Under the pieces are notes generated by a model. The model was given only the letters and a program-made list of their open reading frames with translations. It was not told the DNA's origin and ran no database searches. Shown here one piece after another: positions 2,885-7,001 of a stretch of DNA of 64,000 nucleotides (its first letter is position 1; every line of letters begins with the position of its first letter). Source of the DNA: a virus (taxonomy: Duplodnaviria; Caudoviricetes); IMG/VR virus record IMGVR_UViG_3300005533_000226, positions 841-64,840 of that record; one strand, written 5' to 3'. The translations under genes were made by a program, and so were the position numbers.

Positions 2885-3600
2885 AGCGCGCTTAACCTTT
2901 CCTCGATGGCCTTGGCCGCCGCCTCATAGACCTGTCCGGCCATCTCTTGCCGGTAGGCGCGCACAATCTCGATGCAGCGCCGGTGCATCGCTGCTTCTTG
3001 CCCGGTGTCGGCGGGTAGAGCGGCGAGGGCTTCTATCGCTTCCTTGCAGGCGTCAGCGATCAGCTTGTTGCTGATGTTTGTGAATTGACGGATCGCGCGG
3101 TTGTTTTCTGACTGAATTCGCTTTACCGCTTCCAGCGCCGTTCGCAGCGTGTTGGATTGGGCGGTGTCAATCGGCTTCCAATGTCCGCGCTGATAGCATT
3201 CACGATCATCAAGGTCGCAATAGCACGCCCCGGCAGGTCGTTTCTTTACCGCTTCTTCGTATGAAATCTCGACAGTCGATAGAACGGCTAGTGCTTCTTT
3301 GGCCTCTTGAAGCATCGCGTCATAGGTAGAATTCGGAAGGCGCGAATAGCTTCTGTCGATTTTTTCTTTGACCAGCGCCCAGTAATTTTCCAGTGCTGCG
3401 CGCAGCTTGTCGGTAATTGGCCTCCCGGTGCCGGTGTAAAGGGACAGTGCAGCGAGAAACAAAACCCCAAAGTCGTCTTTTGAAATGCGACCTTCGATGA
3501 TTTTGCGTGGCCCATCGTTCTCAAATTTAGTTGTGGGACAGAATGTCGGGCGGACTCGCGCTTCAATTGCTCCTAGCGTCGCCAGCAGCTTGTCAGTCAT
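2881..3600 (-). CDS. Hypothetical phage protein
   Basis: 239 aa coupled ORF; contains WKPIDTA. Confidence 0.65.
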   Translation of the reverse strand: MTDKLLATLGAIEARVRPTFCPTTKFENDGPRKIIEGRISKDDFGVLFLAALSLYTGTGRPITDKLRAALENYWALVKEKIDRSYSRLPNSTYDAMLQEAKEALAVLSTVEISYEEAVKKRPAGACYCDLDDRECYQRGHWKPIDTAQSNTLRTALEAVKRIQSENNRAIRQFTNISNKLIADACKEAIEALAALPADTGQEAAMHRRCIEIVRAYRQEMAGQVYEAAAKAIEERLSAL

Positions 3601-3863
3601 GGCTTGCCCTTTCTCTTTGGTTGCCTCGGAGTGACGGCCACTATGACGGCACCGCGCGCAAAGCCCTTCCCTGTCACGCGCATCCCGACCGCTGGCATGA
3701 ACGGCGGTGGCGGAGCTGGGCGACGGAATCGCTTCGGCGGCGGATTGATGCCGCCTTTGCTATTCGAGACCGTTGGCAGCGGTTCCGTGCGCGCCTTCTG
3801 CCGCTTCGCGTGCTGCGCGAGCGCGTAGGCGGAGAGACCTTTCGGCTGTGCTTTCTTTTTCAT
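3597..3863 (-). CDS. Basic hypothetical protein
   Basis: ATGA-coupled to the Tas-like gene. Confidence 0.55.
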   Translation of the reverse strand: MKKKAQPKGLSAYALAQHAKRQKARTEPLPTVSNSKGGINPPPKRFRRPAPPPPFMPAVGMRVTGKGFARGAVIVAVTPRQPKRKGKP

Positions 3864-5113
3864 TTCGGATCGCTGTTTGCAGCCCGCTGGATTAACTCAA
3901 GTCTCCGCCACTCTTGGAACATCGCCTTGAGGAATTTTTTCACCACGTAACGGCTCGCTCTGATGGCGGCATATTCAGCGTAGCTTTCGCGCAATTGGCC
4001 ATCCGTCATCACCGGCTCGCGGGCAAATTCAGGATTATTTTGCACCTCATATCTGCATCGGCTGACAAACATTTTTTGCCAGCAGGTCATTTTGTCGTTT
4101 TTTTCGATGTCTTCGCCGACAAGAGGGCGTTTCATATAGCCGACAAGGTTATCCTCTATGAGATGCGCTGCTGCGCGCCGCCGTGGGCTATAGCCAGCAT
4201 TTTCCCATTCTGATTTTGAAAGTCCCGTGGCGCCCATTTTTCGCCACGTCGCGCAGGCGCGCACGGTGCCGTCCGCGCCTTTGACTGGCGCGAGACCAAG
4301 TCGCTTATAGAGCGCAGAGAATGAGCTGTATTTGGAGATGTCGCCGCATTCGCCGATGATGCGAACAAGCGACTTGATGCCAAGTCCTCTGAAGCCTGTA
4401 AACCACGTCGCGATAGGAATTGTTTTTGCGATTTTCCCTAGGTATTTATCCAGCTCCTTGATTTCATTTTCTATTGAATCGCTGAGTGCGATGATCGGAA
4501 GAACAGTGAATTTTTTGTCTTCATCTTCCGGCAGCATATCGCCTGATATAATACGCTTGAGCGCGTCGCCTCCCTTCTTCCAAGATTCTTTTTGCCCAAG
4601 ATGACTATAGCTGCGAGCGCAAAATGCGCGCGCGCGATTGTCGATTCCGATTTTCAATTTTTCCCATGCTCGATGCGTGGGCCATAGAGAAACGATTTGT
4701 TCTATGGGCGTGAAATTTTGATCTGACGCTGGGGCGGTGATTTGGGTGCTGCCAATGGTCCGATCACGGTCAAGCGATGGCTTTTTGAGTTGTGTATTGG
4801 AAGCGGCTTGACCAAAATCTTCGGAAGACATCTTCCCACTGATCGGTGGTTTTTGGCTGGTCTTCCGCGCGGATTTTTTGTCCGCAATAGAGTCGCCCGG
4901 CTGGCTCCCTTTGATATGCGTAAGCTTTGTGGCCGGGCGCGCTGATTTCTCAGCGATAGATTCGGATGGCAGAAGAAATTTGGTTTGCACCAGCGTTGGG
5001 GCCATCCGCGCGGTTTTCTTCCCGCGAACAAGTTTGCCCGGCGTGACCGTTCCGGTTTCGACCGCTATAGTGGCCGGGCATCCGCTTTGCGCGGAAATTT
5101 CATGCTTGCTCAT
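3860..5113 (-). CDS. IS110/Nop-domain RNA-binding protein (TasA-like); no RuvC or HNH domain; N-terminus encoded by the stem-loop array
   Basis: Coiled coil, then WFTGFRGLGIKSLVRIIGECGDISKYSSFSALYKRLGLAP (IS110 Transposase_20-like), YSPRRRA, and C-terminal AIRASRYVVKKFLKAMFQEWR. The likely ATG at 5113 overlaps the upstream stop. Confidence 0.8.
   Translation of the reverse strand: MSKHEISAQSGCPATIAVETGTVTPGKLVRGKKTARMAPTLVQTKFLLPSESIAEKSARPATKLTHIKGSQPGDSIADKKSARKTSQKPPISGKMSSEDFGQAASNTQLKKPSLDRDRTIGSTQITAPASDQNFTPIEQIVSLWPTHRAWEKLKIGIDNRARAFCARSYSHLGQKESWKKGGDALKRIISGDMLPEDEDKKFTVLPIIALSDSIENEIKELDKYLGKIAKTIPIATWFTGFRGLGIKSLVRIIGECGDISKYSSFSALYKRLGLAPVKGADGTVRACATWRKMGATGLSKSEWENAGYSPRRRAAAHLIEDNLVGYMKRPLVGEDIEKNDKMTCWQKMFVSRCRYEVQNNPEFAREPVMTDGQLRESYAEYAAIRASRYVVKKFLKAMFQEWRRLELIQRAANSDPK
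4720..5095 (-). ncRNA. Array of six 46-nt stem-loop guide-like units (TIGR-like stem-loop array)
   Basis: Units at 5035-5080, 4963-5008, 4894-4939, 4822-4867, 4768-4813 and 4720-4765. Each has an 8-bp inverted repeat around exactly 30 nt, with CCA- and YCA-like motifs 18 nt apart. Confidence 0.85.
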
Positions 5114-5628
5114 TGCCAAAAACCTTTCTGTGAATCTTGTTAGCCTGCTGAAGCGAGATGCACTGGCGAACGGTTTTTCCTTCGCTGATTTTTTTCGCGA
5201 TGAGTTTATAGAAGCTGCCCTTGGCGAGCATGTTTCTACCCTGCGCAAAATAGAATTCGCTTTCTTCAAGCAATTCTTCGCGCGTAACGTCGCCAAGTTT
5301 TCTTCCTGAACGCAGCATCATATCAAATAGGATGTTGCGCATTCCTTCCGCCGCCGCAGCCGTGGCTCGCGCCCCTTCTTCGTCCGGCCTGTTGGCGTTA
5401 TCCCAAATTTGTTTTCGCTGAGCGCGAGTGCAATGGCGGATCACGTTGTCACACGCGGTCCAAACCATAGCGTCAAAAAGTCCGCGATATAGTGATGGAT
5501 CGCGTTTGACGCGCTCAACCATCTTCTCGCGCGCTTTCTCAATAATGCCATCACACTCGTCGAGCGACTCCTTGGCCACGTCCCGAATTTTATTTTGAGT
5601 TGCCGGTGTGACGGAAAAAAAAGTTCAT
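5100..5628 (-). CDS. Hypothetical helical protein directly upstream of the Tas-like gene; apparent frameshift in a T8 run near its 5' end
   Basis: Open 5100-5579. The ATG at 5628 (ATGA-coupled) joins this frame only if the A8 at 5615-5622 were A7. Confidence 0.65.
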
Positions 5629-6044
5629 GCTGCCTCCTTCATGCGCTTCTGATTCCGCCGCTGGCCGCTCTTGCAAAGCCAGCGCAGATTGCCGCGCGTA
5701 TTGTTGAGGGTGTCGGTATCTATGTGATCGCCGGTGTGCCGATCCGTTGGACGCGGCAGGCCCATGCGATCAAGGATGACATCGTGCATCATTATGGTGA
5801 CGCGCCGATTTTCTTTGCGCGGACCTACGCGAATACAGCGTCGGGCATAGACGTGATTGCCGTGGCGCTTGTCGCTGATTTTGAATGTCCACGGCCATTG
5901 CATCAGATAGTCATAGTCTTCGGCCGACACGCGCACGCAGTATTGCGCTTTCGCGCCTATCGTGATCGTGCGCACATCCTCGTTGCGAGGATCATAAAGC
6001 TGGATCACCCGGTCGCCGGGGAATGGGATGACATCGCCGCTCAC
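5625..6044 (-). CDS. HNH endonuclease (HNH_3 type)
   Basis: MHDVIL...GDHIDTDTLNNTRGNLR. Confidence 0.85.
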   Translation of the reverse strand: MSGDVIPFPGDRVIQLYDPRNEDVRTITIGAKAQYCVRVSAEDYDYLMQWPWTFKISDKRHGNHVYARRCIRVGPRKENRRVTIMMHDVILDRMGLPRPTDRHTGDHIDTDTLNNTRGNLRWLCKSGQRRNQKRMKEAA

Positions 6045-6667
6045 GTCGAGGCTCCCTGCGTCTCAGTGGGGTCTTCCTCGATGGCGCCCAGCTCGCGCAG
6101 CTTCAGAAAGAGCCGCTTGGTGCGTTGCATATCTTGCCAAGCGTTGTGAAAGCCGCTGCGCGGTTCTTCGCTCAGAAGCTTCACACAAGCCTCATCGAGC
6201 GATGGCCACTTAAATGTGCCGTTCTTGCTGCCGTTCTTCGGCGGGATTTTGCAGAGCTGCGTTGACAGCTTCATCGTGTCGAGCCACGTCAGGCCCGGCC
6301 TCAGCCAGTTGTCTGTCGGCTTTCCGCGCCGCAGGATAGCGCCAGCGATCAGGTCTTTGTCGAAATCGACGCCGTGCCCGATAACGTGAGTGGCTTGGCT
6401 GGCGAGGCCGATGAGCATTCCAAGTGCCGTGACCTCGCTGACGCCCCGCCGGGCGGCCTCCTTGCTGCTGATTCCGTGGATCAGCGCAGCGCCTTCGCGG
6501 ATTTTCCGCCCCTCAGCGCGCACTTTGATATAGAAGAATTCCTGCGCCCAGCCCTCATCATCGAACAGCTCAGCAGCGATGGCGACCGGCCACGGTTGCG
6601 CCGGATCATCAAGCGCAAGATGCTGCTTGATCAGGTCGCTGCTTTCGCAATCGAAGGCGAGGAACAT
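6041..6667 (-). CDS. DEDDh 3'-5' exonuclease (DnaQ-like)
   Basis: AFDCES, GHGVDFD and HNAWQD motifs. Confidence 0.85.
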   Translation of the reverse strand: MFLAFDCESSDLIKQHLALDDPAQPWPVAIAAELFDDEGWAQEFFYIKVRAEGRKIREGAALIHGISSKEAARRGVSEVTALGMLIGLASQATHVIGHGVDFDKDLIAGAILRRGKPTDNWLRPGLTWLDTMKLSTQLCKIPPKNGSKNGTFKWPSLDEACVKLLSEEPRSGFHNAWQDMQRTKRLFLKLRELGAIEEDPTETQGAST

Positions 6668-6674
6668 GGCGCGT

Positions 6675-6902
6675 TCACTCGCTGATCAATTCGATCTTGC
6701 CGGTGAACGGCTCGAATTCTTCTTCGCCCCAACTTTGGCAATGAAAACCTAGGTGGTATCCGCCGACATTAACGGCAACAACGGTGCCACAGTTCTCGGC
6801 ATGGAAAAGCACAACAAATTCGCATCCGCCCTTGGTGTATTTTTTCAAGCAAGGATATGCGGATCGCGGCGCTTTATTTGATGGCACAATTACTGATCTC
6901 AT
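6675..6902 (-). CDS. Hypothetical phage protein
   Basis: AAAGGAGACC RBS. Confidence 0.6.
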   Translation of the reverse strand: MRSVIVPSNKAPRSAYPCLKKYTKGGCEFVVLFHAENCGTVVAVNVGGYHLGFHCQSWGEEEFEPFTGKIELISE

Positions 6903-7001
6903 TTTTGGTCTCCTTTGGTTTCCGAGTGGCGGGAGGGGGAAGAGTCAGCCGGACAGAACCCCCTCCCGCCCGCATCCCGCCGGGCGGCCCCGGCGAGCGC
7001 G

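What the first reader, a model, noticed from the sequence alone, without database searches (positions are those of the whole stretch)
4720..5113. The guide array appears dual-coded: every unit spacing is a multiple of 3 and the frame stays open
Seen: unit-to-unit offsets are 72, 69, 72, 54 and 48 nt, all divisible by 3. The frame from ATG 5113, which overlaps the upstream stop, runs through all six units without a stop into the folded domain. There is no in-frame ATG, GTG or TTG between the last unit and the start of the first helix (FTPIEQIVSLW). The N-terminal ~130 aa look unstructured, with echoes such as SIAEKSAR / SIADKKSAR / LVRGKKTAR. Inference: the mRNA is also the guide precursor. Processing would destroy the effector's own message (built-in autoregulation), and new units or spacers must preserve the frame.
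Basis: partly seen in the sequence, partly recalled or inferred. Interest (0 to 1): 0.88.

Follow-up and report, generated by a model that had tools for sequence, protein, structure and literature searches.

The report
Guide-RNA hairpin array inside tasA gene
Six regularly built RNA hairpins lie in frame inside the start of a prophage gene for a TIGR-Tas guide-RNA-binding protein, a real and neat case of one stretch serving as both guide array and coding sequence, but a kind of arrangement already described for this family in 2026.

Summary
On the minus strand, 5080-4720 carries six 46-nt hairpins. Each has an 8-bp stem and a loop of exactly 30 nt. They start at 5080, 5008, 4939, 4867, 4813 and 4765, giving offsets of 72, 69, 72, 54 and 48, and all sit in the same codon phase of ORF 5113..3860. 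Stems covary: 47 of 48 cells pair and 7 of 8 pairs show double changes. The region folds far better than synonymous-codon shuffles (z -4.76, 0 of 150).

The protein is a nuclease-less TIGR-associated protein (TasA type). Its best fold matches are TasR and TasH, then IS621 and Nop5. Residues 1-123 are predicted disordered. The hairpins are a TIGR stem-loop array, with two 9-nt spacers per loop. The same unit recurs beside homologues in 21 of 39 phage loci.

No canonical in-frame start lies between 4831 and the first conserved helix, so at least units 5-6 are translated. A start at 5113 would make all six translated.

Spacings in multiples of 3 are local, not a family rule: homologue spacings mod 3 are 9/10/8. 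Xu et al. (bioRxiv 2026.09.09.750476) already report stem-loop arrays inside tas coding sequences without frame disruption. Autoregulation remains untested.

The parts
3860..5113 (-). tasA-type gene as the longest well-supported ORF (417 aa), from ATG 5113 with a Shine-Dalgarno-like AGAAAGG upstream
   Evidence: ORF list; start codons. The fold matches TasR 9mty and TasH 9vzx best. NCBIfam NF052498 E 1.2e-14, 54.8 bits, below the cut-off of 100. Profile hit to 9mty, E 1.4e-7.
3860..4714 (-). Conserved core (coiled-coil plus Nop-type RNA-binding domain), residues about 134-417
   Evidence: pLDDT is mostly above 90 from residue 131. The core is conserved in 36 word-index hits and in 1967 representative clusters at E<=1e-30.
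4715..5113 (-). N-terminal 133 codons: predicted disordered, basic (21 K+R against 11 D+E), and holding the array
   Evidence: pLDDT below 50 for residues 1-123; composition. RNA folding z -4.89 against dinucleotide shuffles and z -4.76 against synonymous-codon shuffles, 0 of 150.
5035..5080 (-). Unit 1: 8-bp stem, 30-nt loop
   Evidence: Scores 15.2 bits with model R1, built from homologues only.
4963..5008 (-). Unit 2: 8-bp stem, 30-nt loop; the best match to the family consensus
   Evidence: R1 26.7 bits, E 0.0035 over the whole window.
4894..4939 (-). Unit 3: 8-bp stem, 30-nt loop
   Evidence: R1 15.5 bits.
4822..4867 (-). Unit 4: 8-bp stem, 30-nt loop. The in-frame ATG 4831 spans its loop/3'-arm junction.
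   Evidence: R1 13.5 bits.
4768..4813 (-). Unit 5: 8-bp stem, 30-nt loop; loop motifs degenerate
   Evidence: R1 only 2.6 bits.
4720..4765 (-). Unit 6: 7 of 8 stem pairs, 30-nt loop; loop motifs degenerate
   Evidence: Alignment A2 and pair counts. Not listed by R1 at E<=10.
5115..5124 (-). 10 nt between the Shine-Dalgarno-like site and ATG 5113, perfectly complementary to 4848-4857 (spacer A of unit 4 plus one base)
   Evidence: Inverted repeat I11. It forms the outer helix in the minimum-free-energy fold. Its significance is unproven.
5100..5579 (-). Upstream 159-aa gene of unknown function, syntenic with tasA in relatives; possibly part of the module
   Evidence: tblastn hits directly upstream of the tasA homologue in L003, L004, L006, L007, L016 and L031. 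No Pfam, PHROG or NCBIfam family.

Best explanation
This is a prophage-borne TIGR-Tas system of the nuclease-less (TasA) kind with a stem-loop guide array, and the array sits inside the 5' part of the tasA reading frame.

Shown here:
- Six tandem hairpins, each with an 8-bp stem of variable but complementary sequence and a 30-nt loop. The loop is laid out as box C, a 9-nt spacer, box D, a 4-nt linker, box C', a 9-nt spacer and box D'.
- All six are in one codon phase of an ORF that stays open from ATG 5113 into a Nop-type RNA-binding core.
- The encoded 123-133 residues are predicted to be disordered.
- Nucleotide choice at synonymous and non-synonymous sites is dominated by the RNA stems.

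Inferred from published work on relatives:
- The transcript is cut into single-hairpin tigRNAs.
- A TasA dimer binds each one.
- The two spacers pair with opposite strands of an 18-bp DNA site.
- The complex blocks transcription rather than cutting DNA.

Inferred for this locus: translation most likely starts at 5113, coupled to the upstream gene, so one RNA is both message and guide precursor. If it starts at 4831 instead, only the last two hairpins are translated. Coupling between guide maturation and TasA synthesis is plausible but unshown.
For: Hairpin geometry and phase.

Covariation: 47 of 48 cells pair and 7 of 8 pairs carry compensatory double changes. 0 of 500 shuffles reach the observed pairing or covariation score, and slid controls pair in 19-42% of cells.

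Folding: z -4.76 against synonymous-codon shuffles (0 of 150). Two core segments of the same gene give z -0.69 and -0.02.

Protein identity: best PDB fold hits are TasR 9mty (E 1e-5) and TasH 9vzx, then IS621, then Nop5. The sequence profile hits 9mty at E 1.4e-7. NCBIfam TIGR_Tas_endo gives E 1.2e-14.

Family-wide unit: 48 distinct hairpins from 21 phage loci share the layout C|CA, N9, TG, N4, CCA, N9, T|G with variable stems. They cluster within 800 nt upstream of the core.

Independent model: model R1, built from homologue units only, finds unit 2 in the whole window (E 0.0035). It scores units 1, 3 and 4 at 13.5-15.5 bits on the sense strand, against 5.1-5.9 bits on the other strand.

Translation: no canonical start lies between 4831 and helix 1. 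In 15 of 21 loci at least one unit lies in the open frame joined to the core, and 7 of those 21 have no start after it.

Literature: Faure et al. 2025, PMC12045711, sections 4, 6, 9 and 10 read. Xu et al. 2026, bioRxiv 10.64898/2026.09.09.750476, sections 11, 12 and 21 and passages of 5 and 13 read.
Against: Loop motifs. The window's loops depart from the family consensus. The internal box D is TG or CG in only 2 of 6 units, although its G is invariant in 48 of 48 homologue units. The internal box C' is CCA in 1 of 6 (TCA in 4).

Model scores. Units 5 and 6, the two that must be translated, barely score or do not score with R1. They could be relics.

No direct evidence of expression, processing or the translation start (one search listed no RNA run).

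Targets. No DNA target with 0 or 1 mismatch was found for any spacer pair in the 3.28-Mb host assembly.

Strand test. The G.U against A.C asymmetry test gave no signal (7 against 8). So an RNA rather than a DNA hairpin rests on orientation-specific loop motifs and on the literature.

Family cut-off. The NCBIfam score of 54.8 bits is below that model's cut-off of 100.
Confidence: 0.8

Rival explanations
1. The array is mostly a 5' leader, not coding. Translation starts at ATG 4831 (or at 5005 or 4990). Units 1-4 are untranslated guides between the upstream gene and tasA, and only the two degenerate units 5-6 lie in the coding sequence. The open frame from 5113 and the in-phase spacings would be incidental.
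For: Units 1-4 fit the family model while units 5-6 do not. A start at 4831 would leave about 40 residues before the core, similar to the closest homologues P0002 and P0003. The region is stop-poor in most frames, so openness is weak evidence. In homologues many units lie outside the ORF: 18 of 48 are upstream of an in-frame stop.
Against: ATG 4831 has no properly spaced Shine-Dalgarno-like site and sits at the loop/3'-arm junction of unit 4, its G being the first stem base. ATG 5113 has AGAAAGG about 8-9 nt upstream and overlaps the upstream stop, as in coupled phage genes. Frame 0 is the only one of six frames with no stop, and 99 of 20000 shuffles stay open. Consensus-grade units do lie inside the frame with no later start in L004, L006, L007, L003, L016, L030 and L040.
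Confidence: 0.3
2. The array is decayed: the hairpins persist but no longer act as guides. The stretch now serves only as a structured 5' coding region or a disordered basic tail.
For: Internal box D and box C' depart from the otherwise near-invariant consensus in 4-5 of 6 units. The R1 scores are low except for unit 2. No target was found.
Against: Perfect 8-bp stems and exact 30-nt loops are kept in five units, and the sixth has 7 of 8 pairs, with compensatory changes that include non-synonymous ones. That is hard to keep without selection on the RNA. In units 2-5 loop positions 13 and 18 can still pair (G-C, G-U, A-U, A-U; my reading). This suggests a clade variant rather than decay.
Confidence: 0.12
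3. A purely protein-level repeat: a disordered N-terminal tail with repeated short peptide motifs, in which the nucleotide regularities are by-products.
For: Peptide echoes are present. Peptide repeats with a 22-24 aa period occur in some homologues, with third codon positions the least conserved.
Against: Stem partners covary through non-synonymous changes while the peptides differ. Folding exceeds all 150 synonymous shuffles. In homologues the same hairpins occur outside the ORF and in all three codon phases. Echoes such as G-Q and G-H in homologues are simply the translated stem/loop junction.
Confidence: 0.03
4. A DNA-level element, such as origin iterons inside a replication gene (as recalled for the lambda O gene) or cruciform-forming inverted repeats.
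For: The locus lies in the early, replication-recombination arm of a prophage: an exonuclease-like gene and an HNH gene are adjacent. The wobble-pair asymmetry test could not tell RNA from DNA.
Against: The arms differ between units, so they are not a common protein-binding site. The loop motifs are strand-specific relative to the gene. The adjacent protein is a Nop-type RNA binder of the Tas family. Related arrays have been shown to be expressed and processed as RNA (Faure 2025 section 9; Xu 2026 section 11).
Confidence: 0.03

Closest known systems
TIGR-Tas systems with stem-loop arrays and TasA effectors (Faure et al., Science 2025, PMC12045711; Xu et al., bioRxiv 10.64898/2026.09.09.750476, 2026)
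   Same: A solo Nop-domain protein sits next to tandem hairpins. [quoted passage not shown] The setting is a phage or prophage. [quoted passage not shown]
   Different: This is one specific six-unit case in which every unit shares a codon phase. The internal box D and box C' differ from the motif sets quoted for TIGRFinder (TCA instead of CCA/CGA/CTA/CAA; CA, CC or TC instead of TG/CG). Small A-rich-loop hairpins fill four linkers. One spacer is complementary to the gene's own ribosome-binding region. I could not see the papers' supplements or the TIGRSafari catalogue, so this locus or clade may already be listed there.
IS110-family bridge recombinases (IS621) with bridge RNA
   Same: The C-terminal RNA-binding domain has a related fold: 8wt9 and 8wt6 are fold hits at E 0.007-0.03. 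There is a weak Pfam Transposase_20 match and PHROG 'transposase' matches. The guide RNA is encoded next to the 5' end of the gene.
   Different: There is no DEDD/RuvC domain. The equivalent N-terminal 130 residues are disordered. The gene is single-copy in the genome. The locus carries an array of single hairpins rather than one two-loop bridge RNA.
Box C/D snoRNP (Nop5/Nop56/58 with C/D guide RNAs)
   Same: Nop-domain fold: 3id5 and 3pla are weaker fold hits. [quoted passage not shown]
   Different: Relatives target DNA, not RNA. No fibrillarin or L7Ae partner was identified here. The boxes are 2-3 nt long instead of the full C and D boxes.
CRISPR arrays and phage mini-arrays
   Same: Tandem guide units with a 48-72 nt period lie beside their effector gene.
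   Different: There is no conserved direct repeat: Tandem Repeats Finder found none and Rfam gave no hit. Each unit is its own hairpin with a split spacer.

Membership tests
TIGR-Tas (Tas protein) | Nop-type RNA-binding domain with a coiled-coil dimerisation region, related to TasR/TasH | tested here: met
   AlphaFold2 model: core pLDDT mostly above 90. Foldseek best hits are 9mty TasR (E 9.6e-6) and 9vzx TasH (E 4.9e-5). The profile of A1 hits 9mty at E 1.4e-7 and TasH at E 0.0023.
TIGR-Tas (Tas protein) | Passes the curated NCBIfam model NF052498 (TIGR_Tas_endo) | tested here: not met
   E 1.2e-14 but 54.8 bits against a cut-off of 100. That model is an equivalog for nuclease-bearing members, so this shows relatedness, not equivalence.
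TasA subclass | No HNH or RuvC nuclease domain | tested here: met
   Residues 1-123 are predicted disordered. No nuclease family appears in Pfam, PHROGs or NCBIfam for this protein.
TIGR stem-loop array | Tandem units whose flanks are variable but consistently palindromic and form a stem | tested here: met
   Six units. Five have perfect 8-bp stems and one has 7 of 8 pairs. 7 of 8 pairs show compensatory changes.
TIGR stem-loop array | Two spacers of 8-12 nt per unit with a short linker between them | tested here: met
   The 30-nt loop parses as 2+9+2+4+3+9+1 in all six units. This is the same layout as 48 homologue units.
TIGR stem-loop array | [quoted passage not shown] | tested here: inconclusive
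   Read. The outer box C is CCA in 4 of 6 units. The outer box D' is TG or CG in 5 of 6. The internal box D is TG or CG in 2 of 6. The internal box C' is CCA in 1 of 6 (TCA in 4).
TIGR stem-loop array | Match to a covariance model built from units of homologous loci only | tested here: inconclusive
   R1 scores: unit 2 26.7 bits, unit 3 15.5, unit 1 15.2, unit 4 13.5, unit 5 2.6, unit 6 not listed.
TIGR stem-loop array | Conserved CUU at the stem base as the processing site (Xu et al., section 11) | tested here: inconclusive
   By reading only. CUU lies 3 nt after the stem of unit 1, inside the 3' arms of units 4 and 5, and at the loop end of unit 2. There is no consistent position.
TIGR-Tas system | Array transcribed and processed into unit-length tigRNAs bound by Tas | not testable with these tools
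   No RNA run was listed for this sequence.
IS110 transposase | N-terminal DEDD RuvC-like catalytic domain, and multi-copy mobile element ends | tested here: not met
   No DEDD_Tnp_IS110 match; only a weak Transposase_20 match (E 0.054). The N-terminus is disordered. The genome holds a single copy.
CRISPR array | Near-identical direct repeats separated by spacers | tested here: not met
   Tandem Repeats Finder: 0 rows. The units average 59% column identity, concentrated in a few positions.

The most novel reading that the evidence does not exclude
The intragenic array may be a self-limiting switch. The 10-nt stretch between the ribosome-binding site and ATG 5113 pairs perfectly with spacer A of unit 4. 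The resulting long-range helix encloses units 1-3. TasA binding to the hairpins, or their excision, would then open or destroy the start region of its own message. Guide loading and TasA synthesis would be tied together stoichiometrically. On this reading, keeping every unit in the same codon phase would reflect selection on how ribosomes and TasA compete on one RNA.
Probability: 0.12. Interest if true: 0.6.

Novelty: new member of a known kind. Interest (0 to 1): 0.35.

Why it matters
[quoted passage not shown] Their natural roles, targets, guide maturation and array growth are still open questions (Faure 2025 Discussion; Xu 2026 Discussion).

This locus is a clean example within a 99%-complete genome assembly. 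It has a single tasA and a six-unit array wholly inside the open frame, in a 64-kb window with phage-like genes. That makes three questions directly testable:
- Is the array translated?
- Is the same transcript both message and guide precursor?
- Does maturation feed back on TasA synthesis?

It also shows how strongly an embedded RNA structure can dictate both synonymous and non-synonymous codon choice in a disordered protein segment. This is a practical warning for annotation. Gene callers give this family N-terminal extensions of 2 to about 300 residues. The peptide 'repeats' in them are translated hairpin junctions.

The general phenomenon is already in print, so the gain is a well-characterised case plus statistics, not a new principle.

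Tried and rejected
1. Tandem Repeats Finder on 4500-5400 returned 0 rows. Rfam at E<=1 on 3000-7000 returned 0 matches.

2. My first reading was a protein-level repeat in a disordered tail, prompted by the peptide repeats in homologues. I dropped it after the synonymous-shuffle and covariation results.

3. The 12-nt motif behind the peptide echoes is not enriched window-wide: 25 matches against 20.2 expected.

4. Single units folded alone are not exceptional, with z from -1.38 to +0.74.

5. Strand and RNA test by wobble pairs. Inside stems I counted 2 G.U, 2 A.C and 3 others in 53 units. At stem ends I counted 7 G.U and 8 A.C in 47 units. Neither count is informative.

6. Spacer targets. Both possible arrangements of the two spacers were tested, with gaps of 0-2 and up to 3 mismatches, against the 3.28-Mb genome. 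There were no hits with 0 or 1 mismatch. Two-mismatch hits numbered 8 for the 6 cognate pairs and 17 for the 30 non-cognate pairs. In the homologue loci there were 6 cognate hits against 5 control hits. I did not scan public virus collections for 18-mers, because I estimated (no call) that chance hits would swamp them.

7. Sequencing runs: no RNA holder was listed.

8. The promoter and terminator scan of 3500-6800 gave nothing above the shuffles.

10. Relatives. The protein was found in 1 of 60 other related genomes searched (G057, 38% identity). That locus has eight units at three positions. The genome-contig scan returned only seven copies of a distant (27%) relative in one metagenome chromosome, probably IS110-like; I did not pursue them.

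11. The L013/L014/L009/L010 subgroup has no hairpins with a 30-nt loop. By eye, its units may have about 35-nt loops with an interrupted stem. This was not tested.

12. Supplements of both TIGR papers and the TIGRSafari catalogue could not be seen. They may already list this clade or locus.
Full report
What is there

The finding lies on the minus strand in ORF 5113..3860 (417 aa). The surrounding genes resemble phage genes. The upstream gene 5579..5100 overlaps the ATG by 14 nt, and further upstream lie an HNH endonuclease-like gene and an exonuclease-like gene.

I scanned 4700-5140 for perfect 8-bp stems with any loop of 3-60 nt. The scan returned exactly five hairpins. All have a 30-nt loop and all begin at codon position 1 of the ORF. 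Their 5' arms start at 5080, 5008, 4939, 4867 and 4813. A sixth hairpin (4765-4720) has the same loop length and 7 of 8 pairs.

Hairpins of this kind occur about once per 18 kb in the genome (184 in 3.28 Mb), yet five lie within 313 nt here.

Is it a nucleic-acid structure or a peptide repeat?

At first the peptide echoes suggested a protein-level repeat, as did the 22-24 aa repeats in some homologues. Three results overturned that reading.

- Aligned without gaps, the six units pair in 47 of 48 stem cells, and 7 of 8 pairs show changes on both sides. No shuffle out of 500 reaches the observed pairing or covariation score. Sliding the partner by 1-3 columns drops pairing to 19-42%. Several of the compensatory changes alter the amino acid.
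- The 399-nt N-terminal coding stretch folds at -142.4 kcal/mol, against -116.4 +/- 5.5 for sequences that encode the same peptide with the same codons permuted (z -4.76, 0 of 150). Two core segments of the same gene give z -0.69 and -0.02. Against dinucleotide shuffles z is -4.89.
- In 42 phage loci that encode homologues, hairpins with stems of 7-16 bp and an innermost loop of exactly 30 nt cluster within 800 nt upstream of the conserved core. Their stem sequences all differ. They occur in all three codon phases and also outside the ORF.

Recurrent G-Q and G-H dipeptides in homologues are the translated stem/loop junction.

What the protein is

Pfam gives only a weak Transposase_20 match (E 0.054), and PHROGs call the protein a 'transposase'.

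An AlphaFold2 model built from 16 sequences has a confident core (pLDDT mostly above 90 from residue 131). Residues 1-123 are below 50. Its best PDB matches are TIGR-TasR (9mty, E 9.6e-6) and TasH (9vzx), then the IS621 bridge recombinase, then archaeal Nop5. A sequence profile also reaches 9mty (E 1.4e-7) and TasH. NCBIfam NF052498 (TIGR-Tas endonuclease) matches at E 1.2e-14, although below its equivalog cut-off.

There is no nuclease domain, so this is the TasA type. The family is large: 1967 representative clusters at E<=1e-30. Predicted N-terminal extensions run from 2 to about 300 residues.

What the array is

From 48 distinct homologue units in 21 loci, the loop consensus has this layout:
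- the last stem base C followed by CA (box C);
- nine variable bases;
- TG (box D);
- a 4-nt linker;
- CCA;
- nine variable bases;
- T, then the first stem base G.

This is the stem-loop form of the TIGR array described by Faure et al. 2025 (PMC12045711, section 9 read). It also fits the motif definition quoted for TIGRFinder by Xu et al. 2026 (Methods passage read).

The window's six units parse in exactly this register, but their boxes are partly off-consensus:
- outer box C is CCA in 4 of 6;
- outer box D' is TG or CG in 5 of 6;
- internal box D is TG or CG in 2 of 6;
- internal box C' is CCA in 1 of 6 (TCA in 4).

I built a covariance model from 46 homologue units only. It finds unit 2 in the whole window (26.7 bits, E 0.0035). 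With filters off it scores units 3, 1 and 4 at 15.5, 15.2 and 13.5 bits on the sense strand, against 5-6 bits on the other strand. Unit 5 scores 2.6 bits and unit 6 is not listed. So units 1-4 look like working guides of a variant clade, and units 5-6 may be relics.

Is it dual-coded?

Frame 0 has no stop over the 133 codons. Only 99 of 20000 shuffles stay open. The other frames are also stop-poor (2, 4, 2, 2 and 9 stops), so this alone is weak evidence.

The stronger argument comes from the start codons. The canonical in-frame starts are 5113, 5005, 4990 and 4831. The next one, TTG 4657, lies inside the first conserved helix. So units 5 and 6 are translated in any case.

ATG 5113 has the only well-placed Shine-Dalgarno-like site and overlaps the upstream stop. 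ATG 4831 lies at the loop/3'-arm junction of unit 4 and has no usable spacing to a ribosome-binding site. I put about 0.55-0.6 on 5113.

Among the homologues, 21 of 39 evaluable loci had strict units. In 15 of those 21, at least one unit lies in the open frame joined to the core. In 7 of those 21 there is no canonical start after the last unit, and several of those units are consensus-grade.

Spacings in multiples of 3 are not a family rule: 27 spacings give 9/10/8 for mod 3 = 0/1/2. In the window, units 1/3 and 2/4 share stems and linkers at a distance of 141 nt (47 codons). This suggests a two-unit block duplicated in frame. That would account for three of the five spacings.

Function

For relatives it is published that:
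- stem-loop arrays are expressed and cut into single-hairpin RNAs;
- TasA lacks nuclease activity;
- TasA represses transcription in a guide-dependent, reversible way;
- the two spacers pair with opposite DNA strands.

These points come from Faure 2025 sections 6 and 9 and from Xu 2026 sections 11 and 12.

I found no site with 0 or 1 mismatch for any spacer pair in the host assembly, and no excess of matches in the homologue loci. The targets are unknown and presumably lie in other mobile elements.

Comparison with what is known

[quoted passage not shown] They detected intragenic tigRNAs for one TasA. They also note that separate internal promoters are an alternative (passages read).

The autoregulation step is as untested here as it is there. 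I could not see the supplements or the TIGRSafari catalogue.

Verdict

This is a new member of a known kind.

- quantitative evidence that RNA structure overrides codon and residue choice in this stretch;
- family statistics showing that only the total frame, not each spacing, is conserved;
- a variant box pattern;
- a syntenic upstream gene;
- a 10-nt complementarity between one spacer and the gene's own start region, which could be chance.

Noticed in passing
window 5100-5579 (-): The 159-aa gene just upstream of tasA has no Pfam, PHROG or NCBIfam family. It recurs directly upstream of the tasA homologue in six phage loci (L003, L004, L006, L007, L016, L031; 26-30% identity). Its mRNA segment 5579-5181 also folds better than synonymous shuffles (z -2.96, 2 of 150). 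It may be a partner of the system.
   Followed up: partly
window 5081-5095, 5009-5026, 4940-4955, 4869-4885 (-): Four small hairpins (5-6 bp stems, A-rich loops of 4-8 nt) fill the linkers just 5' of units 1-4. Their role (processing signal, stem extension or by-product) is unknown.
   Followed up: no
window 5115-5124 and 4848-4857 (-): There is a perfect 10-nt complementarity between the stretch separating the ribosome-binding site from ATG 5113 and spacer A (plus one base) of unit 4. It forms the outer helix of the predicted fold. Comparable single-spacer matches in homologue loci were not above control (9 against 5).
   Followed up: partly
L009, L010, L013, L014 (N-terminal extensions of the homologues): This subgroup has 22-24 aa peptide repeats with a conserved A-D-K-A centre but no hairpins with a 30-nt loop. 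By eye, the units may be hairpins with about 35-nt loops and an interrupted stem, that is, a different unit geometry.
   Followed up: no
L051 (G057:C7:244971-248729), minus strand of the locus: This is the only homologue found among 60 related genomes. It has eight 30-nt-loop hairpins at three places: four about 0.8-1 kb upstream, two at the 5' end of the gene, and two just downstream. The match holds one in-frame TAG.
   Followed up: partly
L043-L049 (one metagenome-assembled chromosome): Seven copies of a distant relative (27% identity over about 100 residues) lie on a single chromosome. This looks like a multi-copy IS110-type element rather than a Tas locus.
   Followed up: no
window 5625-6044 (-): The HNH endonuclease-like protein also gives a Pfam Barwin match (E 9e-5, 22.8 bits, just above the cut-off of 21). 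This is probably spurious for a phage HNH protein.
   Followed up: no
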